The notes beneath the pieces were generated by a model, which worked only from the letters and a program-made list of their open reading frames with translations, searched no databases and had not been told where the DNA came from. Below are positions 3,743-57,593 of a DNA stretch of 64,000 nucleotides, in pieces; the stretch's first letter is position 1; the number at the start of each line of letters is the position of its first letter. Position numbers and translations under genes: made by a program. The stretch comes from an uncultured bacterium (lineage in GTDB: Bacteria > Latescibacterota > MWCZ01), in the NCBI GenBank assembly GCA_964510105.1, contig CAZEAI010000003.1:31805-95804 (forward strand), read 5' to 3'.

Positions 3743-5860
3743 TTGATGGAATCGGACTGGACGCTGTCGTTTCGAGCGTACGCGCCGCTCTGGTTCTCTC
3801 TCGTATGCGTCGTCGCGGCGGTCGCATGGTACGCGTATCGCGAAACAGTCCCCCCCGTTCCTGCTCGGACTCGCAGAATACTCCTCGCACTCCGCCTGAG
3901 CGCGATCGCCGCCATGGCGGTTGTCGCCCTGGGGCCCCGACTCGTTACGACAGGACTGCACGCACGTAGCCCGCGGCTGAGCATCCTCGTGGACCGCAGC
4001 GAGAGCATGTCGTTCACCGACGCCCTCGGAAGCCGCCGAGACGCCGTCGTCGCCTTGAACGCAACGCCAAGCATGGAACGTCTCCGCGAGCGGGCGGAGA
4101 CTCGATCCGTCTCCTTCGCTCGAAACGCCACGCCGTTTGACGACCAGCTACCCGCATTCGACGGCGACGCGACAGCGATAGGCGATGCCCTCCTCAGCAT
4201 GCGCCGACGGATGCCCCCACCGGACCGCGTGGTACTCATCACCGACGGAGTCAGCAATACCGGGCCCGATCCCGTGCGCGCTGCCGCCGAAGCCGGATTG
4301 CCCGTGACCGCGATCGGAGTGGGAAGCGACCTACCTCAGCGCGATGTCCGTATCGCGGGAGTCTCCACGCCGGAGATCGCGCTTGCCGGGAAACCAGCGA
4401 CACTCACCGCAACCGTGGAGAACACTGGCACGCCGGGCCGGACCGTCGCGTTGCGCGCCATAGTGGCAGGCAGAACCGTCGCACGTCGCGAGTTACGCCT
4501 CCCGGCCAACGGCCTGCGAATCGACGTGGAACTCGAACTGCCTCCGGCGTCGCCGGGCGTCCTGACAGGCCTGGTCGAGGTCGACGCGGTACCGGACGAG
4601 ATCGTCACGGAGAACAACAAGCGCCCGTTCTCGTTGGAGGTGCTCAAGGCCGAGCGCCGTGTGCTGGTGCTCGCCGGAGCGCCCAGCGCCGACCTCGCAT
4701 TCCTGCTCAGGCTCCTCGCAAGGCGCAACGGCACCCGCGTCCGGCTCTGGATGCCGCCACATAGATCACATCGGGACGGGCCTGCGCCGCTGGACCCCGA
4801 CAGCCTGGCGGATACGGACCTCGTGATCTTGCACGAACTGCCGGAGAGAGCGCTTGCCGCGCGGGAGCTTCAGTCGCTTACCGACGCCGTCGGCGACGGA
4901 GCCGGGCTGCTCGTCATACCGGGGCGCTCGCCCATCCCCGCGATGATCGCGGCGATTCTGCCGGTGGAGCTGAATCGCTCCCGGCCTCTCGAGCTTGAGC
5001 TGTCAACGCGCATCTCGACGGGGCTGGAGCGCCACCCCGCATTCGCGGACGACCCGGAATTCTCGCGATGGGCGCTCGACTGGAACGCCCTCCCACCGTT
5101 GCTGGCGGCAACGGTCGGCGCCACCGTCCGACCGGGCGGGTCCGAGCTACTTGCGAGCGAGAACGGAACGATCGCCGCCACCGGCAGGCATGGCGCGGGA
5201 CGGGTCGGGACGTTTCTCGGGCGCACGCACTGGCGTTGGGAGACGATCCCGGCGGGCATGGGTTCGCCACAGTCGCCCGCGGTTGGATTCTGGCAGGCGT
5301 TGGCCCGCTGGCTCGCCACCCGCGAGCCGGTGAGCCGTGTCCGACTGCAGAGCGACCAGGCGCACTACCGCCTTGGCGAGCCGGTCCGACTGCTCGCGCA
5401 CGTGTTCGATGACGAACACTCGCCGCTCAGCGACGCGACGGTTCGGATCGACGTGGACAACGGCGCCATGACGGCGTCCGCCGACGCTCGCCGCCGGGGC
5501 AGATACGGCGCGGAGTTTCTCGGGCTGACACCGGGCGAACACAGCGCGATCGCCGAGGCCAGGAACGGCAGCGGCTCCCTCGGCACGGCGACTGTGGAAT
5601 TCTCGGTGTCGGCCGGCGGCCTGGAACATGAGGAAACCCGCCAGCGCCGCGATGTTCTTGAGCGGATCGCGGCGGCGACGGGTGGAGACTACGCGCCTGT
5701 CGCATCCGCCGACAGCCTGCTTGCAGCGATGCAACTCGACGAGATACTCGAACCGCGCGAACGGCGCATCGATATTGGGGCGTCACCATGGCTGCTCTTC
5801 TTCATCATCGCGACGCTGACGGCAGAGTGGATCGTCCGGCGCACGCGTGGCCTGCTCTAG
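3743..5860 (+). CDS. von Willebrand factor type A domain membrane protein (BatA-like, N-terminal double-TM anchor)
   Basis: Two N-terminal TM helices followed by a vWA MIDAS motif (LSILVDRSESM) and a C-terminal TM helix (WLLFFIIATLTAEWIV). Full-length 705-aa ORF. Confidence 0.6.
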   Translation: MMESDWTLSFRAYAPLWFSLVCVVAAVAWYAYRETVPPVPARTRRILLALRLSAIAAMAVVALGPRLVTTGLHARSPRLSILVDRSESMSFTDALGSRRDAVVALNATPSMERLRERAETRSVSFARNATPFDDQLPAFDGDATAIGDALLSMRRRMPPPDRVVLITDGVSNTGPDPVRAAAEAGLPVTAIGVGSDLPQRDVRIAGVSTPEIALAGKPATLTATVENTGTPGRTVALRAIVAGRTVARRELRLPANGLRIDVELELPPASPGVLTGLVEVDAVPDEIVTENNKRPFSLEVLKAERRVLVLAGAPSADLAFLLRLLARRNGTRVRLWMPPHRSHRDGPAPLDPDSLADTDLVILHELPERALAARELQSLTDAVGDGAGLLVIPGRSPIPAMIAAILPVELNRSRPLELELSTRISTGLERHPAFADDPEFSRWALDWNALPPLLAATVGATVRPGGSELLASENGTIAATGRHGAGRVGTFLGRTHWRWETIPAGMGSPQSPAVGFWQALARWLATREPVSRVRLQSDQAHYRLGEPVRLLAHVFDDEHSPLSDATVRIDVDNGAMTASADARRRGRYGAEFLGLTPGEHSAIAEARNGSGSLGTATVEFSVSAGGLEHEETRQRRDVLERIAAATGGDYAPVASADSLLAAMQLDEILEPRERRIDIGASPWLLFFIIATLTAEWIVRRTRGLL

Positions 5861-6720
5861 CGGCGGCAGCGCTCCTCATCGTCGGAGCCGCGCGCCCGGA
5901 CGTGCTCATCACGGAGATCATGGCGAATCCCGCCGGCGACGAACACACGGGCGAATGGGTCGAATTGTACAATACAGGGACCCGTTACGCCTATATCGCG
6001 CGCTGGTTCATCGGTGTCCAGCACGCGGACACGGTCTACTCCGACGCAGTACACCGCGTCGGCACGCATCAATGGGTCGCGCCCGGCGGATACGCGGTTG
6101 TCGTCGACCCGGGTTGCGCCACGGAGGGCGGGCTCTGTCTGGACGTGCCGGACAGCGTGACGGTATTCACCATCGAGAGCGCCGGCTTCGGCAGATACGG
6201 TATCACGAACGACGGTGGCACGATTCGCCTCACGGGTTGGACTGTGCATGACGTCCAGAATCCAGAGGACGAAGTCACGTACCCGGGCTCGGCCGTCGTC
6301 GAGGGATTCTCCGTCGAGCGCATCGACTTCTCACGCAGCGGGCTGGAGCCGGACAACTGGCGCACGTCCCACGTCCCTGGCGGCACTCCCGGCGCACCGA
6401 ACCATGTTGGCCGCGAACTGCCGGCGAAGGTCGTCCTGCGGATCGGGCCCGACATCCCGACAGACCACGTCACCATCGCCGTGGAGCTGCCGGCCGCGCC
6501 GGTACAGCTCACGGTGAACGTCTTCGACCGGCACGGACGCCGCGTGCGGCGTATCGTCGACGGCACACAGCAGACAGCCGTCGTGGCGCTCGTCTGGGAC
6601 GGGCGTGACGAGCGCGGGACGCCGGTATCGACGGGGCCCTACATCGTGCGCGTCGAGGCTGTCGGGACGGAAACGTCGCAGACTTTCCGAGCGACGAAAC
6701 GGGCCATTATCGCACGATAA
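5827..6720 (+). CDS. lamin-tail-domain (LTD) protein with C-terminal FlgD-Ig/T9SS-type beta-sandwich sorting-like domain
   Basis: LTD signature (ITEIMANPAGDEHTGEWVELYNTG). C-terminal segment VNVFDRHGRRVRRIVDG...WDGRDERGTPVSTGPYIVRVEA resembles the FlgD Ig-like / type-A CTD fold. The start is uncertain: ATG 5788 or in-frame GTG 5827 preceding a signal-peptide-like stretch. It overlaps the upstream gene. Confidence 0.55.
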   Translation: MDRPAHAWPALAAAALLIVGAARPDVLITEIMANPAGDEHTGEWVELYNTGTRYAYIARWFIGVQHADTVYSDAVHRVGTHQWVAPGGYAVVVDPGCATEGGLCLDVPDSVTVFTIESAGFGRYGITNDGGTIRLTGWTVHDVQNPEDEVTYPGSAVVEGFSVERIDFSRSGLEPDNWRTSHVPGGTPGAPNHVGRELPAKVVLRIGPDIPTDHVTIAVELPAAPVQLTVNVFDRHGRRVRRIVDGTQQTAVVALVWDGRDERGTPVSTGPYIVRVEAVGTETSQTFRATKRAIIAR

Positions 6721-15403: not shown

Positions 15404-15416
15404 CGCAAGACCGCAG

Positions 15417-16592: not shown

Positions 16593-16966
16593 CCCACGCG
16601 CCGATACACCTCCTTGCGGACTTCATCGTGCAGGATACCGACCTGCTCCACACGCCGGAGCCGGGCGTGCGACACCTCCGGGAGGCCGTCATCGCAGGCG
16701 GTGCCACGGTGCTCCAGCAGCACACGCATCAATTCGAGCCGCGCGGATACTCCGCCGTGCTGATGCTCGCCCAGTCGCATGCCAGCATCCACACGTGGCC
16801 GGAGGATTTTCTCATCTCCATCGACGTGTTCGGCTGCGGCCCGCTCGACCTCGACGCCGTCCTGGACTCGCTGCGTGAGCGGTATCAGCCCGACGCGGAG
16901 CGCACCGTCCGGCACGATCGCGCTGCGGCAGGCGTCACGAATCGTACCGTTCGTACCGACGCCTGA
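16589..16966 (+). CDS. speH: S-adenosylmethionine decarboxylase proenzyme, small pyruvoyl class (SpeH/SpeD-like)
   Basis: Diagnostic proenzyme processing-site motif QSHASIHTWPE (ESHxSIHTWPE). About 125 aa. GTG start overlaps the upstream stop (GTGA), suggesting translational coupling. Confidence 0.75.
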   Translation: MTHAPIHLLADFIVQDTDLLHTPEPGVRHLREAVIAGGATVLQQHTHQFEPRGYSAVLMLAQSHASIHTWPEDFLISIDVFGCGPLDLDAVLDSLRERYQPDAERTVRHDRAAAGVTNRTVRTDA

Positions 16967-16971
16967 GACCC

Positions 16972-17964
16972 ATGTCCGGCCCACTCTCCGAATCCACTGA
17001 ACTCGCAGGAGCGTCGTTCCATCCCATCGCACGCACCGATGTGGGGCGGCTGGTGCGCGCCGCTTCAGCCGCACAGACCTGGCTCTGGGCGGCGTACGGC
17101 CCATTCCTTGTCAGCTACGGACGTTCGCCCTCGCGCGCGGTGCTCATTGGTGAGATGGACGACGCGCTGGTCGTGCTGTTGCGGCGACGCATCCGCGGAC
17201 AGGGCCACGTCGATCTCATTGTCCCGCCGCTCGCCGCAGAGCCGCTCCCGGCTCTCACCCGCATCACCGATGCGCTCGCCGCGCACAATGGCGGTGAGCT
17301 GGAAACGCGGCTGCTCTGGGCGGACCTGCCCGCCGCCGCACTGCTGGCGGACAAGCCGGGCTGGCGCGTGACGCCGTACGAGCGCGAGTACCTGTACGAC
17401 CGCGACGCCGTGCTCGCCATGAGCGGGGGCGCGTTCCGGACCCTTCGCAAGCGCGTCAACCGGTGCGAGCGCGAAGCGTTCCCGCTCGTGCGCGACTACA
17501 CCGCCGCCGTCAGCGACGGTCGCACCGACCGCGACGCGTGCGCGGATCTGTTACGCGAGTGGCAGGACGTCCGCGAGCCTGTCGTCGAGCCGGTGTTCGA
17601 CTTCGGCTACACCATGGCCGCGTTGGACGTAGCGACGGAGATCGGCCCTCCGCACCTGACCGGGATCGTCGTCGAGGTCGACGCGCGGGTGCGGGCGTTC
17701 GCGTTCGGAGGCGTGCTGCGGGATGACGTCGCGTGCTTCTTCATCCTGAAGAGCGATCCGACGATTCACGGTCTCGCCGAGTTCGCGCGCGTGGGGCTCA
17801 TGCGACGTCTCGACGGCTGCCGGTACGTGAACGACGCCGGCGATCTCGGCCACGAGGGATTGGCGCGGCACAAGAGCGCGTTCCGCCCGGTGGGGTTCGT
17901 GCCGACGTGGAAGATGGGGTATTCCTGCGGGTGTCGCCCCGACACTCCGCAGGCTAACTCCTGA
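16972..17964 (+). CDS. DUF2156-like protein (MprF C-terminal aminoacyl-transferase-like fold), tentative
   Basis: About 330 aa. Segments (GGAFRTLRKRVNRCERE; FFILKSDPTIHGLAEF...HKSAFRP) resemble the DUF2156/LPG-synthase C-domain. Assigned from memory of family features. Confidence 0.4.
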   Translation: MSGPLSESTELAGASFHPIARTDVGRLVRAASAAQTWLWAAYGPFLVSYGRSPSRAVLIGEMDDALVVLLRRRIRGQGHVDLIVPPLAAEPLPALTRITDALAAHNGGELETRLLWADLPAAALLADKPGWRVTPYEREYLYDRDAVLAMSGGAFRTLRKRVNRCEREAFPLVRDYTAAVSDGRTDRDACADLLREWQDVREPVVEPVFDFGYTMAALDVATEIGPPHLTGIVVEVDARVRAFAFGGVLRDDVACFFILKSDPTIHGLAEFARVGLMRRLDGCRYVNDAGDLGHEGLARHKSAFRPVGFVPTWKMGYSCGCRPDTPQANS

Positions 17965-27181: not shown

Positions 27182-29524
27182 ATGACATCGACTGCAAAGA
27201 GATGTGGCTCGGTCGGGCTCGCCGCTGTGGCGGCGTGGGCGATCGCGGGCTGCGAAATGCCGAGCACCCTTTCTCCGAGTGTGGAGATCGCAACGAATCT
27301 GCCACTGCTGGAAGAGCGGGTGAGCATCGGCGAGGATATAGACGGCTCCGCGGCCGACATTCAGTCAACGGTCGACAACAGGCTCGAGATTCACCTCGTC
27401 GAGGATGAGATCGATCTCGGTGACAACGGATCGGTTGGAAGCGATCGATTCGCCGTTGACGACCAGGCGCCCGAGGTGACCGGCGCGACTGTCGGGCTCA
27501 TCAACGTTGACGACATCCCTCCCGAGACGACGAACAACGTCGCCATAGCGGATGTCGCGCCGGATCTCGTCGGGCAGTTCCCGCCGGGGACCACGATTCC
27601 CTTCATGCCGGGCCAGGAGCTGCCCATGAGCAAGGAGGAGATCACGTTCGAGAAGATCGATAGCGTGAGGTTCTCGGACGAGCAGAGCCCCGACCTGAAT
27701 CGCGTCGTGGTCTCGTTCGAGAACAACACCCCGCTCACCATGGGGCCGGTTTCAATCTATCTCAGCAACAACCCGGATACCACCGCCCAGGGCGATATCA
27801 TCGACCCCTATGCCCAGGTGACACTCACCGATGTACCGCCGGGGCAGACTCGGGCGGCGCCGCCGATCATTCTGAGCGGTGTCACGGTCGCGAGCCCCAC
27901 ATACGTGTTCACGGAGTCGGCGTTCCAGTCGGGCACGAATGTGTCCGCGGACGACCTGTCGGCCGGCTCGTTCGCGACTACCGTGGATATCTCGGCGCTC
28001 GAGGTGGTCTCCGCGGTCGCCGAGATTCCAGAGCAGTCCACTCAACGGAATCGAACCATATCATTCAGCAACGACAAACTCGACCTGATCCAGGTCGACC
28101 TCGCCACGACGGACGCGCAGGACGACAGCAATGAGTTCGTGCTGACGTTCCGCAACGACATCCAGACGCCCATCACGCTCGGATATGAGCTGCCGGACTT
28201 CACCATTCCGAAAACACCTCCCGTCGGCGCAGGCGCCATATCAGGAGTGGTAGGGGGCAACTACGCGAAGGGGGTAATGTCGTTCGCAGCGGGCCAGGAG
28301 CAGGTGATCAGATTCGATCTCGATGGAGCGACGCTGGCAAACGGCACCAGCCCCGGTGATCCGGTCGACGATATCAACATAAACCTGCTGGTCACGGTGG
28401 AAGGCACGGGGAGCACCAGAGTGCCCATAGCGTCCACGGACAGCGTAAACGTCGTCGCGGACGTAAGTGGGCTGGCGATCGAGCGCGTCTTCGGTCGCGT
28501 TCCGCCGGACAGGCCTATTGAGATCTCGATCTCGGAATTCAACATCGGAATCGACCAGAACACTCCCGCCGGAGTGAAAGCGATCCATGCCGTCGCCTTC
28601 GCCTCGTCACTGACGATCGCTACGTTCAGCACCGTCGCGGACGCCGAAGTCGACTTGACCATGGCGGTGGCGGCGTCAGACGGCAGTGGCAGCACGGAAT
28701 ACAGTCGAATTCTGCGCAACGAGATCACCGATGGCGCGGTCATCGAGTTCCGTACCACCGAGGACAGCCTTGGCACCGATGGAGTAACCTCGCCGCTCGA
28801 CATCATTAACGCCGCGCTGGACAACGTGATCGAGACGGGCACGGCGGACATCAGCGTCCGTGGTACTGTGACGATCCGGGGCGATGTGGAACTCATCCGC
28901 AACCAGAGCCGCATCGAAGCCGGAGACATGACCGTCGATATGCCGCTGCAGTTCGACGTTCCAGCTATCACGTTCGATGCGAAGTCCGAGGATTCGGACG
29001 CGTTCAGCATCAGCGTGGGTCAGGGCGTGCGGGACGACATCATACCCAAGGCGCGGTCAGCCGCGCTCGTCGCGCACGTTGAGAACCATTTCCCGCTCGG
29101 CGGCGCGCTGGTCATGTTCGTAAGCCCGGACCCACGCCTTACGCGTCTCCGAAGCGAGTACCCAGCTGACGATCAGGATGCGGTAACGTCCATCCCGAAA
29201 GCTCTGCCGGCAGGCATAGACATCACCGACGTCGACAACTTCGTGGCGCAGAACGGTGTCTACAAGCTCATCGAAATCACGTTGCCGGAACCGCAGCGTC
29301 TCGCCGATGGGTCGATCGACAACGACAACCCGGGCGTCGACACGATAGTGATCTCGCTTGGCGAGGAGGAGCTACAGCTCTTCACGTCGCAGAATCTCTA
29401 TCTGCTGCCACGCATACAGCTAGTGCAGGCACCGGGAGTTGTTCAGTTACGAGCTGACGATCATCTGAACGTGTCCCTGTGGATGCAGTTGAACGCCGAA
29501 ACGAAGAGCGGGGAGGGGTCGTGA
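27182..29524 (+). CDS. large (about 780 aa) Asp/Thr-rich lipoprotein of unknown function
   Basis: Signal peptide with lipobox LAAVAAWAIAGC. Long acidic, repetitive beta-rich sequence. Its stop overlaps the next start (TGATG). Confidence 0.55.
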   Translation: MTSTAKRCGSVGLAAVAAWAIAGCEMPSTLSPSVEIATNLPLLEERVSIGEDIDGSAADIQSTVDNRLEIHLVEDEIDLGDNGSVGSDRFAVDDQAPEVTGATVGLINVDDIPPETTNNVAIADVAPDLVGQFPPGTTIPFMPGQELPMSKEEITFEKIDSVRFSDEQSPDLNRVVVSFENNTPLTMGPVSIYLSNNPDTTAQGDIIDPYAQVTLTDVPPGQTRAAPPIILSGVTVASPTYVFTESAFQSGTNVSADDLSAGSFATTVDISALEVVSAVAEIPEQSTQRNRTISFSNDKLDLIQVDLATTDAQDDSNEFVLTFRNDIQTPITLGYELPDFTIPKTPPVGAGAISGVVGGNYAKGVMSFAAGQEQVIRFDLDGATLANGTSPGDPVDDININLLVTVEGTGSTRVPIASTDSVNVVADVSGLAIERVFGRVPPDRPIEISISEFNIGIDQNTPAGVKAIHAVAFASSLTIATFSTVADAEVDLTMAVAASDGSGSTEYSRILRNEITDGAVIEFRTTEDSLGTDGVTSPLDIINAALDNVIETGTADISVRGTVTIRGDVELIRNQSRIEAGDMTVDMPLQFDVPAITFDAKSEDSDAFSISVGQGVRDDIIPKARSAALVAHVENHFPLGGALVMFVSPDPRLTRLRSEYPADDQDAVTSIPKALPAGIDITDVDNFVAQNGVYKLIEITLPEPQRLADGSIDNDNPGVDTIVISLGEEELQLFTSQNLYLLPRIQLVQAPGVVQLRADDHLNVSLWMQLNAETKSGEGS

Positions 29525-31053
29525 TGAAGAAGCTGACTCAAGTCATCGGAGCGGTCGCGATCTGCCTCACGCTATCGGGACCGCAAGCGGGCGCCGTCGG
29601 CATGGGATACAGCCAAGCCGAAGCAACCGGAATGGCCGGGGCGTACTCGGCATTCGCGGACGGAATACATGCTCCTTTCTGGAATCCGGCGAATCTCGCG
29701 GCTGATTCCACTGGGCCGAACGTGGAGATCGGGCTGTTCAACGTGGGCGTCCTCGTTGGCAACGACGGAATCGGCTGGAGCGACTACGTCGGCTGGGTCG
29801 ACGATGGTGTCCTGACGACGAGTGAGATCCAGAGCGCGCTCGACCAGTTCCCCGGAAGTTCGCTCAGCATTCACCAGAGCATGGAATTCGGCGCACCGTT
29901 CTCGATGGCTATCGGGCGCTGGGCCTTCTCGTGGAGCTTCGTGCAGATGGTCGAGATCGGCCTGGCGCGCGGCTTCGTCGACATGATCACCGACGACCCG
30001 CTCGCGGATGTCGACGTGAACGACGTGGCGGCTCGCGACCAGGCGATTCTTGATCGTTATAACGATGCCGAGGCAGGGAACATCGTCCGCGATCTCTCGG
30101 GGATGAAGGCCGACGTGTGGGCGATGAGCACGCTGGGCATCTCTCACGGACGCCTCATCGACGTGCCGATGTTCGAGCGGTTCGCCGTTGGCGGATCGTT
30201 CAACGTCTACCTCGCGGGGCCGCGGATGCGGATCGTGCGATCCGAAGGTGAAGCCGTCGTTCGGGGTAACACCTGGGACGCCGATGCACTGGTGCAGATG
30301 GAGCTTTCCGGCGCCGAGATCACCACGACCGAAGACAGCTCGTGGCAGAGCGACTGGTCCTGGGGCGGCTCTGGGGGCCACTGGGAGCACAACACCGAAC
30401 GCGAGTTAAGCGTGGACCAGCCCGTCGCCTGGGGCCTCGGCGTGAACATCGGCGCCGCGGGGACGTGGCAGGACGAAATCGACTTCAGCGTCGCGATCAT
30501 GAACCTGCCGATCCGGATGATCACCTGGACGACCGGCGAGCGGCGCACGTTCCACATCCAGAACGACACGGATGTGAACGCGAAGTCGATGTTCGACGAC
30601 AAGCCCGACGGTCAGGACATGCTGGACTACCTCGACACGCTCTGGGCTCCGAGCGGAGCCGGCGTCGCGTCGCACGAGCGCCTCAGCTCCACGACCGCCG
30701 CTCCGCCGACGTACATCAGGGCGGGCGCCGCGAAGAACTTCTTCGGTCCGCTGTTGACGTGGACCGTGGACATCGAGCAGGCTTTCGCGGAAACGGCGAT
30801 AACGTCGACAACGCCGCGCCTCTCCACGGGCGCGGAAGTGCGGCCGCTCGGGAAGTGGGTGCCAATTCGAGCGGGCATGTCGGTGGGAGGCCGAACAGGC
30901 CACTTCGCCTCGCTCGGGTTCGGGATCCACATACCGGGATTCCAGTTCGACACGGCGTTCGTGAAGGAGGGTGCGTTCACTCCGTTCGAGGTGCCGTTCT
31001 CCGGTGCCTCAACCGGCGTAGGATTCGCCGCGGAGATGAAAATCTCGCTCTGA
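29524..31053 (+). CDS. outer-membrane beta-barrel protein of the FadL/PorV-like (OMPP1) superfamily
   Basis: Signal peptide (MKKLTQVIGAVAICLTLSGPQAGA) followed by the family N-terminal signature GMGYSQAEATGMAGAYSAFADGIHAPFWNPANLA. Alternating beta-strand-like composition. Confidence 0.5.
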   Translation: MKKLTQVIGAVAICLTLSGPQAGAVGMGYSQAEATGMAGAYSAFADGIHAPFWNPANLAADSTGPNVEIGLFNVGVLVGNDGIGWSDYVGWVDDGVLTTSEIQSALDQFPGSSLSIHQSMEFGAPFSMAIGRWAFSWSFVQMVEIGLARGFVDMITDDPLADVDVNDVAARDQAILDRYNDAEAGNIVRDLSGMKADVWAMSTLGISHGRLIDVPMFERFAVGGSFNVYLAGPRMRIVRSEGEAVVRGNTWDADALVQMELSGAEITTTEDSSWQSDWSWGGSGGHWEHNTERELSVDQPVAWGLGVNIGAAGTWQDEIDFSVAIMNLPIRMITWTTGERRTFHIQNDTDVNAKSMFDDKPDGQDMLDYLDTLWAPSGAGVASHERLSSTTAAPPTYIRAGAAKNFFGPLLTWTVDIEQAFAETAITSTTPRLSTGAEVRPLGKWVPIRAGMSVGGRTGHFASLGFGIHIPGFQFDTAFVKEGAFTPFEVPFSGASTGVGFAAEMKISL

Positions 31054-31124: not shown

Positions 31125-32849
31125 TCACTCCTCAACGATAATCGGCACGTCCAGAACGAACTCGGCCTCTGCCGGGACGCATTCCACTCCGCGTTCCAGA
31201 GCGGCGCGCAGAAGCTGCACCGCCATGCCGGACGGCGCGTTGCCTGAGACCGATACCAGCGTAACGGACCCATCCGGCGCGATCCTCACTTGAGGCACGA
31301 CGATCAGCGGATTCGGCCGCTGCGGGGAATATTGAGCTGCAACCCACATCGCCTGCAACACCGACTTCACCGGTCGAAGCGACCGTTCGAGCGAAGGAAT
31401 CGAACGCGGGTGCTGCACGGGCAGATCTGCGTCAGGCAGCAGAAGCGAATCACCATCCGCCTGCACGGCACGCGCCTCTGCCAACCGGTTCTGGACCAGA
31501 ATCTGCCGGAGGTGCACCACGCGAGGCGACGCCTGGTCCTGCCGTACGATGCTCCGAGCGATCTCGGCGATCCGCTCCGAGGACTCCGCGCGGAGACAGC
31601 TCTCGAACAGCGCGGCGAGCGCATCGGTCGCGGGGAGCAATTCCGGCGCCGGTGACGACCATGCGGTATCCGCCACGAATTCGGGTGGGTACGGCGGCGC
31701 GTAGGGTGGCAGCGGCGTCAGGAGGTCGCGCAACCTGATCGCCGGGTCGCGCGACCAGTAGCTGAGGTCGGTCTCGGTACCTGCCAGCCCCATCCACGGT
31801 CCCGCGAGTGCGGATACGTAGAGCGAATCGAGCGCTTGGAGGTCCGCCAGGCGAGCGAACTCAGCGTATTCCCGGACTACGATCGGCGGCGCGTCACCTC
31901 GATTCTCGATGCGTTGCCGCGCGAGGAATGTGCCCAGTTCGCCGGCCTCGCCCGTAGGCATCGCGAAACGAGTCAGGCGGCTCACCGGAGCCGACTCCCA
32001 CCCGCGCATGCGTTCGTTCAGCCATTCGGATCGAGCGATGCCGCCGTCCGCGCGCCTCCTCGCGCCATAGAGCTTCGCCAGATCGTGCCAGACGATCGAG
32101 CGAGCGGTGTCCGATACGCCCGTCTGCCGCAGGAGCACATCCTGACGCCGCCTCGCCTCTTCGTCCATGGGCACGAGGCCGTGAGCCCGCGCATCGCGGA
32201 GGTTCACCGGCCGCGACGTCGCGGTGAACAGGAGGACGTGAAACGGGCCGACTCCCGACTGCGCGCGCAGCGGCAGCACCAGCTTGTCGGTTGGGAAGGC
32301 CACCCTCAGGGCGGGAAACACTCCGGACCCCGGCGCGTGGACTCCCGGCCGCGGGCGTGCGGTGACGAACGAGAAGCCGGCGTAGTGCTCAAGCGACGAG
32401 TTCGACGGCGGCGCGACGCCGTTCGAGGCACACCACTCTCGCACGCTCGCGACGCCGCTCAGGACCGTGACCTCCCACGCATCGGCCTGAGCAGCAGGCA
32501 CGGGATCGACATCGCTAGGAGCGGCGCCGTTGACGTCGTCCACCGGCACTGCGACGCGATCGATCCATCGCCACGCGGAATCAAGAAGCGAGTCGTCAGC
32601 AGCTTCGGCTACGCTCGGCGGCGATTGGACAGGAAGCAGCCACGCGTCCGGTCCCGGTCGCGAGGCGGGATCACCGGCGAACACGGGCTGGATCACGATG
32701 TGCTGCCACCCGCCCTGCCAGAACGCGAGCGCCACCTCCACCGCGAGCCTGCCCGACGCAGGCGCGGGCCGCGCGGGTCTGTCGGCGTGCGCCACCGCGA
32801 CGCAGAGCGCCGCCGCTATCAGGGCTCGTAGTATGCGGGCCGGTCTCAT
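31125..32849 (-). CDS. hypothetical secreted protein (possibly DUF2330-like)
   Basis: N-terminal signal peptide (MRPARILRALIAAALCVAVAHA). Intact 574-aa ORF. The weak resemblance to DUF2330 is uncertain. Confidence 0.4.
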   Translation of the reverse strand: MRPARILRALIAAALCVAVAHADRPARPAPASGRLAVEVALAFWQGGWQHIVIQPVFAGDPASRPGPDAWLLPVQSPPSVAEAADDSLLDSAWRWIDRVAVPVDDVNGAAPSDVDPVPAAQADAWEVTVLSGVASVREWCASNGVAPPSNSSLEHYAGFSFVTARPRPGVHAPGSGVFPALRVAFPTDKLVLPLRAQSGVGPFHVLLFTATSRPVNLRDARAHGLVPMDEEARRRQDVLLRQTGVSDTARSIVWHDLAKLYGARRRADGGIARSEWLNERMRGWESAPVSRLTRFAMPTGEAGELGTFLARQRIENRGDAPPIVVREYAEFARLADLQALDSLYVSALAGPWMGLAGTETDLSYWSRDPAIRLRDLLTPLPPYAPPYPPEFVADTAWSSPAPELLPATDALAALFESCLRAESSERIAEIARSIVRQDQASPRVVHLRQILVQNRLAEARAVQADGDSLLLPDADLPVQHPRSIPSLERSLRPVKSVLQAMWVAAQYSPQRPNPLIVVPQVRIAPDGSVTLVSVSGNAPSGMAVQLLRAALERGVECVPAEAEFVLDVPIIVEE

Positions 32850-38394: not shown

Positions 38395-38931
38395 ATGCAG
38401 TGTCAGCGGTGTAGTGAAAACGAAGCGACGGTCGCCGTAACGACCGTGGTCGAGGACGACCGTTCGACCGAGCACCTCTGCCGCGTCTGCGCAAAAGAGG
38501 CCGGTGTGGAACTTGGCGCGGAGTGGTCACCGGCGAAGGAGACAACGTCGCCCATGCAGGATGCGAGTGGCGAGCCGATTGCGCACGACGAAGAAGAGGA
38601 ACTCGTGTGTCCGCGATGCGGGCTTTCGTTCCGGCAGTTCAAGGAACGATACCGGGTAGGGTGCGCCGAGTGCTACGATGCATTTCGCGAGCGCATGTCG
38701 CCGCTTCTGCGAAAGGTCCACTCCGCCGATGCTCACACCGGCAAACGGCCCGGCGGAACGAAGCAGGCCGGAGCGGCTGAGAACGACGCCTGGGCGATAG
38801 AAGTGCTGAAGCGACGACTGCAAGCCGCGGTTGAGCGTGAAGAGTTCGAAGAGGCGGCGGGGCTGCGCGACCAGATCAACGAGTACGAGCGTCGCCAGAG
38901 CGCAGACCTCGAGGAGCCGGACGGGCAATGA
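38395..38931 (+). CDS. mcsA: McsA-like protein-arginine kinase activator (double CxxC zinc fingers + UVR motif)
   Basis: CQRCSE...CRVCAKE and CPRCG...CAECYDAF zinc-finger pairs. UvrB/C-like motif (EEFEEAAGLRDQINEYE). Confidence 0.7.
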   Translation: MQCQRCSENEATVAVTTVVEDDRSTEHLCRVCAKEAGVELGAEWSPAKETTSPMQDASGEPIAHDEEEELVCPRCGLSFRQFKERYRVGCAECYDAFRERMSPLLRKVHSADAHTGKRPGGTKQAGAAENDAWAIEVLKRRLQAAVEREEFEEAAGLRDQINEYERRQSADLEEPDGQ

Positions 38932-39986
38932 AGCTCCATGACCTGGTAGATCATTCCGCGGCGTGGCTGGACGCCTCGGGCCCGTACTCCGATGTGATCG
39001 TGTCGAGCCGCGTCAGGCTGGCCCGTAATCTGAGAACCGTACCGTTCACGACTCAGAGCACGCCCGACGAAGAGATCGGGGTCGTCGAAGCCGTGCTTGG
39101 CGCCGCGCAATCGTCCCCCCATCTGCGGGACGGGACGTACTTCGACGTGGCTGCCATGACGGAGGACGACCGGCAGCTCCTGGTCGAACGGCGCCTCATC
39201 AGCCCGGCGCTGGCCCTGCGGAAGGGGCGAGGCGGCGTGCTCGTGGGGCCCCACGAACGTTTCAGCATCATGATCAACGAGGAGGATCACCTACGTTTCC
39301 AGGCGCTCTTCGCCGGGTTTGAGCCGGAGACCGCGTGGTCGCTCGTTGACAGCATCGACGACGATATCTGCGGCGGTCTGGACATCGCTTTCGACGAACA
39401 GATGGGCTACCTGACCGCGTGCCCGACGAACATCGGCACGGGACTGCGCGCCTCAACGCTCATCCATCTGCCGGGACTCGTGCTGGTGGAGTCGATCGAA
39501 GAGGTGCTCCGAGGGATCAACCAGGTGGGCCTCACCGTAAGAGGATTTTACGGGGAGGGCACTGAAGTCGTCGGTAGTTTGTTTCAAGTATCGAACCAGG
39601 TGACGCTCGGAACGTCCGAGTCGGATATCCTGGAAATGCTGGCACGAGTCGTGCGACAGATCATCGACTACGAATACGACGCTCGGCAGACGCTCCTACG
39701 GGACGCAGAGGCGCAGATTGAGGACAAGATCGGCCGGGCAATCGGGATACTCACTCACGCGCACGTTCTGAGCGGCCAGGAGTTCATGAACCTGACCTCG
39801 GCAGTCCGGCTCGGAGTCGGGCTCGGCATACTGAAGCGCCCTGAGACGAAGTTGCTGAACGAACTCATGGTGCAGACGCAGCCGTCGCACATTCAGCGCC
39901 GGGCGGGTTCCCCGGTTGAAAGCGACGAACGCGATCAGCACCGTGCGGAGCTAGTGCGTTCCCGGCTCGCCAACGGCACGACGTAA
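38928..39986 (+). CDS. mcsB: protein-arginine kinase McsB (ATP:guanido phosphotransferase)
   Basis: Phosphagen-kinase active-site motif CPTNIGTGLRAS and flanking conserved segments. 4-bp overlap with mcsA. Confidence 0.85.
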   Translation: MKLHDLVDHSAAWLDASGPYSDVIVSSRVRLARNLRTVPFTTQSTPDEEIGVVEAVLGAAQSSPHLRDGTYFDVAAMTEDDRQLLVERRLISPALALRKGRGGVLVGPHERFSIMINEEDHLRFQALFAGFEPETAWSLVDSIDDDICGGLDIAFDEQMGYLTACPTNIGTGLRASTLIHLPGLVLVESIEEVLRGINQVGLTVRGFYGEGTEVVGSLFQVSNQVTLGTSESDILEMLARVVRQIIDYEYDARQTLLRDAEAQIEDKIGRAIGILTHAHVLSGQEFMNLTSAVRLGVGLGILKRPETKLLNELMVQTQPSHIQRRAGSPVESDERDQHRAELVRSRLANGTT

Positions 39987-40097
39987 GCGAGTCGGCTATC
40001 GCAGCAACGTAGCGCTCCGGAAGGCAGCGAGTCAGCGTCAGGGCAACACGTTACCTCAACACTACCCGCAGTACATAATGAGTCGGAGGCCATCTCC

Positions 40098-55451: not shown

Positions 55452-56237
55452 ATGAAACGCGAGACCCTTCTGCGGTTCACGCTCCTGGTGGCGCTGTCAC
55501 TCGCCGCCGGTGGATGCTACACGGTTCTCACTCACCCGCAGACTACGCCGGAACAGCACGTCACTGACACCGGTGACGTGCTCGCGCCGAACGACTGCTC
55601 GGGATGCCATTCGGGCAGCGAACTCTGGTCATACCACCACGACGCCTACTGGCTCGCCCCGAGCCATCATAGCAGCCTGTCCGGCCCGAGCCATCGCAAC
55701 AGCCTGTCGGGCTACTACGCCTACCGCTACGACCATCTCTTCGTCGGACATCGCTGGTACAATCGCCGTTACTACGATCGCTGGGCATGGTATTACTACC
55801 AGCCGTGGTGGATGTATGACCGCCATCCGCAGCGAGGAGACCATTACGGTCGGCCTGCCGAACAACGACCCACTAGGCATCTCGGCGACCGTCGCGATGG
55901 GTACGACCGTCAGGAGCCGCGCAGCGAGTTCACGCCATATATCGGACCGGGCACCGGCCCCATGACATTCTCGTCTCCGCTTCAGCCCGCGGCGTCGACC
56001 GGCTCGACGGGGCGAGCGCGAACCACTGGCGGCGGCGCTGAAGTGAACGCTGACACGTCGAACGAGCGCAAACTCGGAGATCGGCGGGCCGATCCTCCGG
56101 CTGCTGCGCCCACAACAACTCAGCCGTCGTCGTCCGGTGGCAGCAGGCCAGCGCAGGACGGCGCCAGCAGCGACTCCAACGACGACGGTGACGATGAGCA
56201 ACCTCAGCGGCGACGGCTAGGGGATCGACGCCGCTAG
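55452..56237 (+). CDS. lipoprotein with a single CxxCH motif and an extreme Trp/Tyr/Arg/His-rich low-complexity region
   Basis: Lipobox LAAGGC. NDCSGCHSG (CxxCH). RWYNRRYYDRWAWYYYQPWWMYDRHPQRGDHYGRP. C-terminal Ser/Asp-rich tail. The ORF-track N-extension from 54891 runs inside mutS2 and is rejected. Confidence 0.45.
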   Translation: MKRETLLRFTLLVALSLAAGGCYTVLTHPQTTPEQHVTDTGDVLAPNDCSGCHSGSELWSYHHDAYWLAPSHHSSLSGPSHRNSLSGYYAYRYDHLFVGHRWYNRRYYDRWAWYYYQPWWMYDRHPQRGDHYGRPAEQRPTRHLGDRRDGYDRQEPRSEFTPYIGPGTGPMTFSSPLQPAASTGSTGRARTTGGGAEVNADTSNERKLGDRRADPPAAAPTTTQPSSSGGSRPAQDGASSDSNDDGDDEQPQRRRLGDRRR

Positions 56238-56267
56238 TCGCCGGAAGTGGCACTGGAAGGTGATACC

Positions 56268-57593
56268 ATGACGGGTGCATGGCTTCGGCGAGTCGGCCTC
56301 ACGTTTGCCGGTCTCTTGGTCGCGACACAGACGGCCTCTGCTCAGCAGATTCTGGATATCCGGGATTTCCGAATGGACCTCGGTTTCCAGATCACGGGCG
56401 GATTCGTCGGCGTCGGTGCACGGGAAATGGGGATGGGGGGCGCAGCTCTGGCTGGCGTGTCAGACGGGAGCGCCCTGTACTGGAACCCGGCGGCGCTCAC
56501 GAGAGTTCGCAGAATGGAGCTTCTCGCTGGCCTATCGCGCGCGGGCTCTTCACCCACCACTACCATGGGTCTCGCTCATCCCGTGGATGCAAGCGCATCC
56601 GCAGCGTTCACGCGACTCAACGCCGCCGTCATCACAGCGCCCTATCCTGCATACCGGGGCGGACTGACATTCGCCATCGGATATGATCGTCCTGGCGACT
56701 ACACCTATCGTTCCGAGCAACGGGGACCCTTTTCCCGGAACGGCGCTGACTACGACCAAGTAGATGATGTCCGTCAGGAGGGAGGGCTTTCCCAGCTTTC
56801 CATCGGGTTCGGAGTCGAGATATCTCAGCAGGTGGCAGTCGGCTTGTCAAGCACTTGGTACCGTGGCGATCTGAGCGTTCGTCGCGAACTGACTCTGGCA
56901 CCAACCGACGGAGGCGGGCAGCTCTACGGGGTGTTCAGGCAGAACTCCGATATCAGCGGCTACATGGTCACTGCCGGAACTACGGCTCAGCTCCCCCATG
57001 GACTTGTTCTTGGTCTCGCAGCAACACCACCCGTGACGTACACCGTCGACGGCACCTTCGGTGACGCCTACAACGATTTTCCGGAAGAAGAAGAGGGCCA
57101 GTATCGATACAAGGTGGAGGGCCCGTGGGTCCTCGGCACGGGGTTGGCGTGGACAACGTACGCTCTCACCATCGCCACCGACATCTGGTTCGTCGACTGG
57201 AGCCAGGCAACGTTCAAGGAAAGCCCGTTCGCGGCGGGGTCCGAGGCGTCACCGGGCACGCCGAACGCAGACACATATTTCAGAGACTACTACGACAGCC
57301 CCATCCGATGGCACGTGGGCCTGGAGGCGCTCCTGCCGTGGATAGCCACCGTGGCCCGCGTGGGCTACTACTCGAATCCCGATCCGTTCGCCGGCCCGGT
57401 GCTTTCCACCGGCGAAGCCGTCACGTACACCGAGCGCGCGGGCTACTTCACGGCCGGGCTGGGCTGGCTCATCGACGACACGGTGACCGTGGATCTCGCT
57501 TACACCACCGGCGGGGACGAGTATCGCGCGGGCACGCTGACCGAGACCCGCAACAGCGATTCCGCGTTCCTCACCGTCGGATTCAGGCTCTGA
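56268..57593 (+). CDS. outer-membrane beta-barrel protein of the FadL/PorV-like superfamily (second copy in window)
   Basis: Signal peptide (LLVATQTASAQQ). Family signature GMGGAALAGVSDGSALYWNPAALT. Amphipathic beta-strand-like composition, C-terminal TVGFRL. Confidence 0.5.
   Translation: MTGAWLRRVGLTFAGLLVATQTASAQQILDIRDFRMDLGFQITGGFVGVGAREMGMGGAALAGVSDGSALYWNPAALTRVRRMELLAGLSRAGSSPTTTMGLAHPVDASASAAFTRLNAAVITAPYPAYRGGLTFAIGYDRPGDYTYRSEQRGPFSRNGADYDQVDDVRQEGGLSQLSIGFGVEISQQVAVGLSSTWYRGDLSVRRELTLAPTDGGGQLYGVFRQNSDISGYMVTAGTTAQLPHGLVLGLAATPPVTYTVDGTFGDAYNDFPEEEEGQYRYKVEGPWVLGTGLAWTTYALTIATDIWFVDWSQATFKESPFAAGSEASPGTPNADTYFRDYYDSPIRWHVGLEALLPWIATVARVGYYSNPDPFAGPVLSTGEAVTYTERAGYFTAGLGWLIDDTVTVDLAYTTGGDEYRAGTLTETRNSDSAFLTVGFRL

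What the first reader, a model, noticed from the sequence alone, without database searches (positions are those of the whole stretch)
27182..31053. Translationally coupled pair: giant acidic lipoprotein + FadL/PorV-like outer-membrane barrel (with a second analogous pair at 55452..57593)
The 780-aa lipoprotein stop overlaps the start of an OMP whose mature N-terminus carries the G-x-G...A-x-F-W-NPA-x-L signature seen in FadL/TodX transporters and in PorV-type T9SS shuttle proteins. A second lipoprotein plus FadL/PorV-like barrel pair occurs 25 kb away. Two such pairs suggest a recurring outer-membrane module (cargo or lipoprotein plus its cognate barrel) rather than a lone fatty-acid channel. 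Together with the LTD/CTD-like protein at 5827..6720, they may be part of a T9SS-like or novel surface-exposure system.
Basis: partly seen in the sequence, partly recalled or inferred. Interest (0 to 1): 0.55.

Follow-up and report, generated by a model that had tools for sequence, protein, structure and literature searches.

The report
Conserved lipoprotein plus FadL-fold barrel module
A large acidic lipoprotein and a FadL-shaped outer-membrane barrel are encoded as an overlapping gene pair that is conserved across many phyla related to Bacteroidota; it resembles, but does not match, the BamH-BamG part of the Bacteroidota barrel-assembly machine, and its function is untested.

Summary
A 780-aa lipoprotein gene (27182-29524) ends in a TGA that shares one base with the ATG of a 509-aa barrel gene (29524-31053). 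The barrel carries the GxG...WNPANLA N-terminal motif.

The barrel belongs to Pfam DUF5723 and has a FadL fold. It fails the PorV, BamG and Toluene_X models. The lipoprotein ("LpX") belongs to a large, unnamed, uniformly acidic family.

The pairing is not chance. At least 73 of 80 genome loci holding a related barrel have an LpX homologue just upstream, often overlapping. These loci come from Latescibacterota, Calditrichota, Zixibacteria, KSB1, Gemmatimonadota, Cloacimonadota and others. No other neighbour is conserved.

The "second pair" is not homologous. Its barrel is BamG-like (best NCBIfam and PDB hits, long N-terminal extension), and its 261-aa lipoprotein is unrelated to LpX.

Nothing links either pair to type IX secretion. 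The closest known arrangement is BamH-BamG of the Bacteroidota BAM complex (2025), but the defining family tests fail for pair 1.

My best reading is a dedicated barrel-lipoprotein envelope complex with a structural or biogenesis role. I rate it a new variant of a known kind, of moderate interest.

The parts
27182..29524 (+). LpX: 780-aa acidic lipoprotein precursor. Signal peptide and lipobox AIAG|C, with the Cys24 codon at 27251-27253. The mature part is predicted to be an all-beta, multi-domain protein.
   Evidence: ORF and lipobox. pI 4.05, net charge -75. AF2 model: pLDDT 86.3, pTM 0.63, almost all strands. Family: 465 clusters at E<=1e-3, with no Pfam, NCBIfam or PDB sequence match.
29510..29526 (+). 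Coupling junction: GGGGAGGGG (Shine-Dalgarno-like, inside the LpX coding end), then the TGA stop (29522-29524) sharing base 29524 with the barrel ATG.
   Evidence: Sequence read directly. Across 63 related loci, 24 show a stop/start overlap (-1, -4, -8, -11) and 46 have a gap of at most 16 nt.
29524..31053 (+). DUF5723-family FadL-fold outer-membrane barrel, 509 aa. Signal peptide is residues 1-24. The N-terminal hatch-type motif GMAGAYSAFADGIHAPFWNPANLA is residues 36-59 (nt 29629-29700).
   Evidence: Pfam DUF5723: 48.8 bits against cut-off 26.8. AF2 model: pLDDT 76, pTM 0.70. Foldseek probability 1.0 to FadL, TodX, CymD, BamG and PorV, with TM 0.4-0.5. Invariant WNPANLA in 16 homologues.
55452..56237 (+). 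Lipoprotein 2: 261 aa, lipobox LAAGG|C, one CSGCH motif, an aromatic/His/Arg-rich stretch and a low-complexity tail. Unrelated to LpX.
   Evidence: ORF. Called as a gene on a public contig. No family hits. hhalign against the LpX profile matches only the signal peptide, probability 2.7%.
56268..57593 (+). Barrel 2: BamG-like FadL-fold barrel, 441 aa from the ATG at 56268 (448 aa from the GTG at 56247). The NPA motif sits at mature position about 48, a long N-terminal extension.
   Evidence: NCBIfam BamG: 50 bits, E 2.4e-13, model positions 24-288 of 397, but cut-off 250. PorV_fam 38 bits. Toluene_X 21.5 bits. The only PDB sequence hit is BtBamG 9hiv_F, E 0.0025. Gene call.

Best explanation
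Pair 1 encodes a dedicated two-protein outer-membrane complex.

Proposed sequence of events:
- Both proteins are exported by Sec.
- LpX is lipidated at Cys24 and sorted to the outer membrane.
- The DUF5723 barrel is inserted by BAM.
- Translational coupling gives matched amounts, and the two proteins associate.

I propose that the barrel does not act mainly as a diffusion channel. Instead it would be the fixed membrane anchor and docking platform for LpX. In some lineages the barrel is itself tied to peptidoglycan. Its unusually long strands would hold LpX, a roughly 750-residue acidic array of beta-sandwich domains, at the cell envelope and most likely on the outer face.

The role would be constitutive, in envelope structure or biogenesis. 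This is the same architecture as BamG-BamH of the Bacteroidota BAM complex, but built from different protein families.

Shown: gene overlap; lipobox and signal peptides; FadL fold; co-conservation of the two families as a self-contained cassette across FCB-superphylum phyla; family-wide acidity; housekeeping genomic contexts; OmpA fusions.

Inferred: physical complex formation; the side of the membrane on which LpX sits; an anchor role rather than a channel role; any link to BAM.
For: Co-conservation:
- An LpX-family ORF lies upstream on the same strand in 71 of 78 loci by a non-circular profile, plus L014 and L016, giving at least 73 of 80.
- The same arrangement appears in metagenome contigs down to 26% barrel identity.
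- All-against-all clustering of the flanks finds only these two families in more than 70 loci. The next most frequent neighbour occurs in 12 or fewer.

Coupling: overlaps or gaps of at most 16 nt in 46 of 63 loci.

Genomic context: the recurrent neighbours are housekeeping genes (SAM synthetase, AdoHcy hydrolase, LptF/G in 7 loci, DegP-type protease in 5, PFK). None is a fatty-acid or aromatic catabolic gene. The window itself has priA-rodZ-maf-FGE upstream and lysS downstream.

Barrel:
- FadL fold.
- Strands of 13-17 residues, longer than a membrane span.
- C-terminal TSP_3 plus OmpA peptidoglycan-binding domains in L013 and L015.

LpX:
- Lipobox Cys in 87 of 91 members, followed by a conserved segment, C-[TS]-[ILVF]-x-[KE]-P-x-[AL]-P-[ST]-W-[DE]...[IL]-P-L.
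- 82 of 86 members have pI below 5, median 4.22.

Precedent:
- BamG is a FadL-like barrel that anchors the surface lipoprotein BamH. The two genes are adjacent in many FCB species.
- BamG2-BamH2 form an operon.
- Fjoh_4940/4941 is another adjacent lipoprotein-FadL pair.
Against: - No direct evidence of an interaction. A multimer prediction could not be run.
- Only 19 of 87 LpX members have two or more acidic residues in the six positions after the lipid Cys. That is the rule used for Bacteroidota surface lipoproteins, so surface exposure is not supported by it (rule as quoted).
- The hatch-type NPA motif is invariant, so a transport function is not excluded.
- The conserved post-Cys segment of LpX is modelled as a strand of the first domain (E35-47, pLDDT 76-82). 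It may be structural rather than a barrel-binding tail.
- The neighbourhood hints toward the envelope (LptFG, DegP) occur in only a few loci.
Confidence: 0.45

Rival explanations
1. Pair 1 is the true BamH-BamG orthologue pair of non-Bacteroidota FCB phyla. It would bind BamA and form the extracellular canopy of the BAM complex, having diverged beyond the reach of the DUF4270 and BamG sequence models.
For: - Liu et al. list adjacent BamG/BamH homologues in Gemmatimonas, Caldithrix, Fibrobacter, Ignavibacterium and Salinibacter. Caldithrix has two BamG and one BamH, the same pattern as this window.
- The LpX-DUF5723 pair occurs in MAGs labelled as the same lineages.
- The gene order is the same, and so is the pairing of a lipoprotein with a FadL-fold barrel.
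- Context is housekeeping.
Against: - LpX members never hit DUF4270, which is BamH: 0 of 34 and 0 of 58 even at E<=10.
- They hit no NCBIfam model and no BAM-complex chain in the PDB, whether searched with the full-length or the N-terminal profile.
- No BamH chain is among the 50 best Foldseek matches of a confident model.
- DUF5723 barrels score nothing, or 13 bits, on NCBIfam BamG.
- They lack the N-terminal extension that distinguishes BamG: NPA sits at mature position 27-30, against about 45-48 in BtBamG and barrel 2.
- The same window already holds a better BamG candidate, barrel 2.
- P. gingivalis has a DUF5723 protein in addition to its BamG.
Confidence: 0.2
2. The barrel is a working FadL-type channel for hydrophobic molecules. 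LpX is its binding or capture partner, a SusCD-like division of labour applied to lipids or other hydrophobic nutrients.
For: - Best structural matches are the transporters FadL, TodX and CymD.
- The N-terminal hatch region has FadL-like length and an invariant NPA.
- LpX domains resemble carbohydrate-binding or jelly-roll beta-sandwiches.
- One MAG holds two pairs (L035 and L045), as expected for diversifying uptake systems.
Against: - No catabolic, regulatory or inner-membrane transport genes co-occur in more than 70 loci.
- The loci scanned show usually one copy, in housekeeping surroundings.
- OmpA fusions and extreme acidity are not features of known FadL systems.
- NPA and the hatch are also kept in BamG and PorV, which are not known to transport, so they do not discriminate.
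Confidence: 0.2
3. The pair is T9SS-related: a PorV/PorQ-type shuttle barrel with its cargo or attachment partner.
For: - Weak N-terminal similarity to PorV_fam (24.8 bits).
- PorV is among the Foldseek hits (8gl6_F, rank 46).
- The window has an LTD protein with a FlgD-Ig-like C-terminal domain weakly similar to the PorU C-terminus.
- By adjacent UniProt accessions only, the P. gingivalis DUF5723 protein may sit next to a T9SS-CTD protein.
Against: - The barrel is far below the PorV_fam cut-off of 90, with no hit at E<=1 to the PorV or PorQ equivalog models (cut-offs 250 and 220).
- LpX is a lipoprotein without a T9SS C-terminal domain. No Por_Secre_tail or sorting-domain hit appears in any of 92 family members.
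- None of the roughly 40 window genes scanned is a T9SS core gene.
- Peptidoglycan-tethered barrels cannot shuttle.
Confidence: 0.03
4. The barrel is a dedicated exporter for its own lipoprotein, Slam-like in logic. The FadL-type lateral opening would let the lipidated N-terminus of LpX reach the outer leaflet, after which the barrel stays bound as an anchor.
For: - A strict one-barrel-one-lipoprotein cassette with co-evolving partners.
- A conserved segment immediately after the lipid Cys.
- In BAM, the BamH N-terminus is wedged between BamG strands with its lipid at the barrel surface.
- No surface-lipoprotein flippase has been identified in these bacteria.
Against: - Purely inferential.
- Surface exposure of LpX is unproven, and the acidic export signal is mostly absent.
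- In B. thetaiotaomicron, removing the BAM lipoprotein dome (bamH deletion; BamG is retained) does not stop surface exposure of a test lipoprotein.
Confidence: 0.1

Closest known systems
BamG-BamH of the Bacteroidota BAM complex (F. johnsoniae 9N2D; B. thetaiotaomicron 9HIV/9HJ3; P. gingivalis 9HJM; PMC12611786, PMC12578637)
   Same: A FadL-fold barrel paired with a large lipoprotein encoded next to it. The barrel has extended extracellular strands that act as a docking pillar, and the pair 1 barrel model also has long strands. Both occur in the FCB superphylum, in constitutive or housekeeping settings.
   Different: The lipoprotein is not DUF4270 and has no detectable sequence or top-ranked fold match to BamH. 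The barrel is DUF5723, does not hit the BamG model, and lacks the BamG N-terminal extension. LpX is larger (780 aa) and strongly acidic. Association with BamA is untested. Barrel 2 of the window is the BamG-like protein.
FadL/TodX/CymD hydrophobic-substrate channels (Pfam Toluene_X)
   Same: Best fold matches, probability 1.0. N-terminal hatch-type segment with NPA at about the same distance from the mature N-terminus (30 here, against 33 in E. coli FadL from my own knowledge of that sequence).
   Different: No Toluene_X hit for the window protein at E<=1. An obligatory lipoprotein partner. No catabolic gene context. OmpA fusions in some members.
PorV/PorQ (T9SS shuttle and attachment-complex barrels)
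   Same: FadL superfamily fold and the shared GxGxAxxA...WNPA N-terminal motif.
   Different: Scores far below the family cut-offs, and only over the motif. The partner is a lipoprotein, not a CTD cargo. No T9SS genes nearby.
Slam (DUF560 barrel) with adjacent surface-lipoprotein substrates in Neisseria and other Proteobacteria (from my own knowledge)
   Same: A barrel gene next to the lipoprotein gene it serves, with the pairing usable as a genomic signature.
   Different: Unrelated barrel family and phyla. Translocation activity here is only a hypothesis.
Other Bacteroidota barrel-lipoprotein pairs: SusC-SusD, Bt1926-Bt1927 (S-layer lipoprotein plus 8-stranded barrel), Fjoh_4940-Fjoh_4941 (lipoprotein plus FadL homologue)
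   Same: The general FCB habit of pairing an outer-membrane barrel with a cognate lipoprotein in one operon.
   Different: Different barrel folds (22- or 8-stranded) or uncharacterised. No sequence relation to LpX was found.

Membership tests
Pfam DUF5723 (PF18990) | Score at or above the curated gathering cut-off (26.8 bits) over most of the model | tested here: met
   Barrel 1: 48.8 bits, residues 71-475 on model positions 16-371 of 376. In nine LpX-paired barrels tested from other loci, labelled as several different phyla, scores are 40-77 bits.
FadL/TodX transporters (Pfam Toluene_X PF03349) | HMM score at or above the cut-off of 29.7 bits | tested here: not met
   Barrel 1: no hit at E<=1. 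Barrel 2: 21.5 bits, below the cut-off. Some relatives carry weak precomputed hits.
FadL/TodX transporters | FadL fold: monomeric barrel with an N-terminal hatch containing NPA | tested here: met
   Foldseek probability 1.0 to 3DWO, 1T1L, 6Z38 and others, TM 0.38-0.50. WNPANLA is invariant. The fold is shared with BamG and PorV, so this shows superfamily membership only.
FadL/TodX transporters | Lateral opening (S3 kink) and substrate passage | not testable with these tools
   Model coordinates could not be inspected, and no functional assay is available.
PorV/PorQ (NCBIfam NF033709, NF033710, NF033711) | Score at or above the cut-offs (90, 250 and 220 bits) | tested here: not met
   Barrel 1: 24.8 bits on PorV_fam, residues 31-63 only. 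Barrel 2: 38 bits. LpX-paired barrels elsewhere: 14-42 bits.
PorV/PorQ | Co-occurrence with T9SS core genes and CTD cargo | tested here: inconclusive
   None of the roughly 40 window genes scanned is a T9SS core gene, and none is among the conserved neighbours in about 80 loci. The whole genome is not available.
BamG (NCBIfam NF053685) | Score at or above the cut-off of 250 bits | tested here: not met
   Barrel 1: no hit at E<=1. Barrel 2: 50 bits, E 2.4e-13, its best family but well below the cut-off. Other DUF5723 barrels score 13 bits or less.
BamG | N-terminus extended by about 10 residues relative to transport FadLs (PMC12578637) | tested here: not met
   Barrel 1: NPA at mature position 30 (FadL 33). 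Barrel 2: position 48. BtBamG: N66 in chain numbering, about 45 if a signal peptide of about 20 residues is assumed. The feature is therefore met by barrel 2 only.
BamG | Binds BamA and BamH in the BAM complex | not testable with these tools
   Needs a pull-down or a multimer prediction.
BamH (Pfam DUF4270) | Match to the DUF4270 model or to solved BamH chains | tested here: not met
   0 of 34 LpX members at E<=0.01 and 0 of 58 at E<=10. No PDB chain is hit by the full-length or N-terminal profiles. BamH chains are not in the top 50 Foldseek matches. Lipoprotein 2 has no hits either.
Bacteroidota-type surface lipoprotein | Two or more acidic residues within six residues after the lipid Cys (as used in PMC12578637) | tested here: inconclusive
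   The window LpX has one (CEMPSTL). The family splits 19 of 87 with two, 49 with one, and 19 with none. The rule has been validated only in Bacteroidota.
T9SS cargo | C-terminal sorting domain (Por_Secre_tail or type A/B CTD) | tested here: not met
   No such hit in LpX or in 92 family members. LpX instead has an N-terminal lipobox.

The most novel reading that the evidence does not exclude
DUF5723 barrels would be dedicated export-and-anchor devices for their cognate LpX lipoproteins. This would be a Slam-like system built on the FadL lateral opening, and it would be an example of how FCB-superphylum bacteria place lipoproteins on the cell surface. BamG-BamH would then be one specialised descendant of this general barrel-lipoprotein principle.
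Probability: 0.1. Interest if true: 0.8.

Novelty: new variant of a known kind. Interest (0 to 1): 0.55.

Why it matters
Bacteria of the FCB superphylum build outer membranes dominated by barrel-lipoprotein complexes. How these are assembled, and how lipoproteins reach the surface, is still open. In 2025 a FadL-like barrel (BamG) and a lipoprotein (BamH) were shown to be essential parts of the Bacteroidota BAM machine.

The pair described here shows that a second, sequence-distinct cassette of a FadL-fold barrel plus a large lipoprotein is conserved across at least ten candidate and named phyla. The cassette is always self-contained and sits in housekeeping surroundings. The lipoprotein family, about 465 clusters at 50% identity, has no model in Pfam or NCBIfam.

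If the pair proves to be a BAM accessory, a surface scaffold or a lipoprotein exporter, it extends the new BAM picture well beyond Bacteroidota. It would also give a simple genomic marker, LpX followed by DUF5723.

If it simply equals the 'BamG/BamH homologues' already tabulated for Gemmatimonas, Caldithrix and Fibrobacter, the value is smaller. It would then show that those homologues belong to families distinct from the Bacteroidota proteins, and that a separate BamG-like barrel coexists with them.

Tried and rejected
1. PorV/T9SS reading: rejected. Scores are far below the cut-offs and cover only the motif, LpX has no CTD, and no T9SS genes were found.

2. "Two copies of one module": rejected.

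3. LpX as BamH/DUF4270, tested five ways, all negative:
- Pfam on 34 and on 58 members
- NCBIfam
- full-length profile against PDB chains
- profile of the conserved post-Cys segment against PDB chains
- Foldseek of the confident model against the PDB
In the Foldseek search, only 4H3W, an uncharacterised Parabacteroides secreted protein, reached probability 1.0, with TM 0.36. The rest were generic beta-sandwich or jelly-roll hits. No paper describes 4H3W.

4. Trying to obtain GAU_1452/1453 and the other listed sequences, to test identity with Liu et al.'s FCB BamG/BamH. The literature search for the locus tags found nothing. The nearest representative to a Gemmatimonas LpX, P0145, came from metagenomes only. 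Cluster look-ups gave no names.

5. Conservation of pair 2. The metagenome scan failed with an error but consumed the cap. No barrel-2 or lipoprotein-2 relatives exist in the loci held.

7. The promoter/terminator scan of the operon was uninformative.

8. Caution on counts. A profile built from alignment A6 contains some of the loci it 'finds' (L042, L069, L081, L086). I therefore report only the non-circular A2-profile figure, at least 73 of 80.

Full report
**The observation**

On the + strand, an ORF beginning at 27182 encodes a 780-aa protein. Its N-terminus, MTSTAKRCGSVGLAAVAAWAIAG|C, is a classical lipoprotein signal with lipobox Cys24. The protein is very acidic: pI 4.05, 117 Asp+Glu against 42 Lys+Arg.

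Its TGA stop (29522-29524) shares base 29524 with the ATG of the next gene. A GGGGAGGGG run lies 5-13 nt upstream of that ATG.

The second gene (29524-31053) encodes a 509-aa protein. It has a cleavable signal peptide (…SGPQAGA|VG) followed by GMAGAYSAFADGIHAPFWNPANLA.

Public metagenome contigs carrying identical sequence have the same two genes called, with the same products.

**The barrel**

Pfam places the barrel in DUF5723 (48.8 bits, cut-off 26.8), covering nearly the whole model. It does not reach Toluene_X at all.

It touches the NCBIfam PorV/PorQ family model only over residues 31-63 (24.8 bits, cut-off 90). It does not hit the BamG model.

An AlphaFold2 model built from 16 homologues (pLDDT 76, pTM 0.70) is a barrel. 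Many of its strands are 13-17 residues long.

Foldseek against the PDB gives probability 1.0 to FadL, TodX and CymD, to the BamG chains of three BAM cryo-EM structures, and to PorV. All have TM 0.3-0.5 and about 10% identity. The protein is thus a FadL-superfamily barrel, but fold alone cannot say which functional branch it belongs to.

The WNPANLA segment and several glycines are invariant across the family. The NPA lies at mature position 30. That is about the same as in E. coli FadL (position 33, from my own knowledge of that sequence).

**The lipoprotein (LpX)**

The lipoprotein, here called LpX, has no hit in Pfam or NCBIfam and none among PDB chain sequences.

An exhaustive profile search found 465 representative clusters at E<=1e-3, mostly 660-1000 aa. 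Thirty-four diverse members, and later 58 locus-derived members, hit no Pfam or NCBIfam family consistently.

With a 34-sequence alignment, AlphaFold2 gives a confident model (pLDDT 86.3, pTM 0.63). It is almost entirely beta-strand and multi-domain.

Foldseek finds generic beta-sandwich and jelly-roll proteins. Only an uncharacterised Parabacteroides secreted protein (4H3W) reaches probability 1.0, at TM 0.36.

The lipobox Cys is present in 87 of 91 aligned members. It is followed by a conserved segment, C-[TS]-[ILVF]-x-[KE]-P-x-[AL]-P-[ST]-W-[DE]…[IL]-P-L.

Acidity is a family trait, not a peculiarity of this organism. Of 86 members, 82 have pI below 5 (median 4.22). The other window proteins have a median pI of 5.28.

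**The pairing is conserved**

Contigs encoding barrel homologues of 49%, 32% and 26% identity all have a 720-790-aa (or truncated) protein with no Pfam hit directly upstream, overlapping or abutting the barrel gene. These upstream proteins align with LpX. Starting instead from a distant LpX homologue again finds a DUF5723 barrel overlapping its stop. A further representative gives the same result.

A scan of one genome per species returned 80 loci. The nearest are an unclassified MAG (57%) and a Latescibacterota MAG (45%). The others are labelled:
- Calditrichota, Zixibacteria, KSB1, Gemmatimonadota
- Krumholzibacteriota, Cloacimonadota, Fibrobacteraceae
- Eisenbacteria, LCP-89
- a few labels that are probably mis-binned

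A profile built from six sequences, none from these loci, detects the upstream ORF as LpX in 71 of 78 cases. It also detects L014 and L016.

All-against-all clustering of every flank ORF shows LpX in 72 loci and the barrel in 71 loci. These are the only conserved families; the next occurs in 12.

The recurrent neighbours are housekeeping genes: SAM synthetase, AdoHcy hydrolase, a ComF-like protein, LptF/G, PFK and a DegP-type protease.

Among 63 loci with a resolvable junction, 24 have overlapping stop and start codons and 46 have a gap of at most 16 nt.

All nine LpX-paired barrels tested from other loci, labelled as several different phyla, pass the DUF5723 cut-off. Two of them (L013, L015) carry C-terminal thrombospondin-type repeats and an OmpA peptidoglycan-binding domain.

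**The second pair**

Lipoprotein 2 (55452-56237, 261 aa) and barrel 2 (56268-57593) are real called genes. They are not a second copy of pair 1.

The two barrels share only the N-terminal motif (E 0.027). Neither family's profile finds the other. Lipoprotein 2 matches the LpX profile only in its signal peptide.

Barrel 2's best family is NCBIfam BamG: 50 bits, E 2.4e-13, over model positions 24-288, though far below the 250-bit cut-off. Its only PDB sequence hit is the B. thetaiotaomicron BamG chain 9hiv_F.

Its NPA sits at mature position 48. That is an extension of about 15 residues relative to FadL. An extended N-terminus is the feature said to distinguish BamG from transport FadLs. BtBamG has the motif at N66 in chain numbering.

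Barrel 2 is therefore the BamG-like protein of this organism. Lipoprotein 2 has no family hits, an odd aromatic/His/Arg-rich composition and one CxxCH motif. I could not test whether its position next to barrel 2 is conserved.

**Comparison with known systems**

Two 2025 papers showed that Bacteroidota BAM contains BamG and BamH. BamG is a FadL-like 14-stranded barrel bound to the back of BamA. BamH is a surface lipoprotein docked on extended BamG strands, with its lipidated N-terminus held by BamG. BamH is DUF4270.

BamG2-BamH2 form an operon. Liu et al.'s Supplementary Table 1 shows BamG and BamH as adjacent locus tags in Chitinophaga, Gracilimonas, Ignavibacterium, Salinibacter, Fibrobacter, Gemmatimonas and Caldithrix. 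Caldithrix has two BamG and one BamH.

Architecturally, pair 1 is the same kind of thing. Its proteins nevertheless fail the family tests:
- LpX never matches DUF4270, any NCBIfam model or any solved BamH chain.
- No BamH chain ranks in the top 50 fold matches.
- DUF5723 barrels do not match the BamG model.
- DUF5723 barrels lack the N-terminal extension.

P. gingivalis has a DUF5723 protein besides its BamG.

I could not obtain the Gemmatimonas, Caldithrix or Fibrobacter sequences. So I cannot say whether Liu et al.'s FCB homologues are LpX/DUF5723 proteins. This is the main open point, and it is recorded in the notebook.

**Type IX secretion**

LpX has an N-terminal lipid anchor and no C-terminal sorting domain. 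The barrel is far below the PorV and PorQ thresholds. None of the roughly 40 window genes I scanned is a T9SS core component.

The LTD protein at 5788-6720 has LTD and FlgD-Ig domains. Its C-terminal domain has only a 22.7-bit resemblance to the C-terminus of PorU.

Peptidoglycan-tethered family members are hard to reconcile with a shuttle.

**Mechanism**

I commit, at moderate confidence, to a stoichiometric barrel-lipoprotein complex. In it the DUF5723 barrel is a fixed anchor and docking platform for the acidic beta-sandwich lipoprotein, serving a constitutive envelope role. The supporting observations are:
- the self-contained cassette
- translational coupling
- housekeeping contexts and the absence of catabolic partners
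- long barrel strands
- OmpA fusions
- the BamGH precedent

Several points stay inferred. There is no interaction evidence. The Bacteroidota acidic export signal is present in only 19 of 87 members. The conserved post-Cys segment is modelled as part of the first domain. A transport role is not excluded, because the hatch motif is invariant.

The rival explanations are:
- true BAM membership
- a hydrophobic-substrate uptake pair
- a Slam-like dedicated lipoprotein exporter
- T9SS involvement, which I consider least likely

**Verdict**

Pair 1 is a widely conserved, uncharacterised cassette of a lipoprotein and a FadL-fold barrel in the FCB superphylum. It is a new variant of the barrel-lipoprotein theme exemplified by BamG-BamH. 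Pair 2 contains the BamG-like barrel and is a different thing. Interest is moderate (0.55).

Noticed in passing
window 42798-47015 (+): A 1405-aa ORF with strong coding bias (GC3 0.79) has no Pfam or NCBIfam hit at all.
   Followed up: no
window 38395-42608 (+): A McsA-like protein (UVR motif), the McsB protein-arginine kinase (406.7 bits, above the cut-off of 385) and a ClpC-type AAA+ ATPase lie together. This is the arginine-phosphorylation degradation cassette best known from Gram-positives, here in a diderm FCB-type genome.
   Followed up: partly
The C-terminal domain has only a weak resemblance (22.7 bits) to the C-terminus of PorU, and there is no T9SS sorting-domain hit.
   Followed up: yes
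window 55452-56237 (+): Lipoprotein 2 carries a single CSGCH (CxxCH haem-binding-type) motif 27 residues after the lipid Cys. It then has a Tyr/Trp/His/Arg-rich stretch (…RWYNRRYYDRWAWYYYQPWWMYDRH…) and a disordered tail. There is a weak N-terminal hit to cytochrome c551, E 0.15.
   Followed up: partly
L013 4917-6917 and L015 4923-6926: The DUF5723 barrels paired with LpX are fused C-terminally to TSP_3 repeats and an OmpA peptidoglycan-binding domain (84-87 bits). The barrel in L009 has an extra N-terminal region of about 300 aa with a sub-threshold SPOR hit.
   Followed up: partly
L035 and L045 (both contigs of MAG JBDRSZ01): One MAG carries two separate LpX-plus-barrel pairs, so the module can be paralogous within a genome.
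   Followed up: no
L068 3754-6284: A Gemmatimonadota MAG has a shorter (377 aa) lipoprotein directly upstream of a FadL-like barrel. The lipoprotein is not detected by the LpX profiles and the barrel is not DUF5723. Its post-Cys segment (…PPQFEETWNLP…) faintly recalls the LpX motif. This is possibly a third kind of lipoprotein-FadL pair.
   Followed up: partly
window 15237-17964 (+): A BpsA-like branched-chain polyamine synthase, an AdoMet decarboxylase and an LPG_synthase_C-like protein sit in a row.
   Followed up: no
window 31125-32849 (-): A 574-aa protein convergent with the barrel gene has only a sub-threshold DUF2330 hit (21.1 bits, cut-off 24.7). Among the loci examined it was seen downstream of the pair only on the contigs identical to the window (L001-L003), not in L004, so it is probably not part of the module.
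   Followed up: partly
L017, L027, L040: In three loci the LpX gene is split into two adjacent ORFs. These may be frameshifts, assembly errors or pseudogenes.
   Followed up: no
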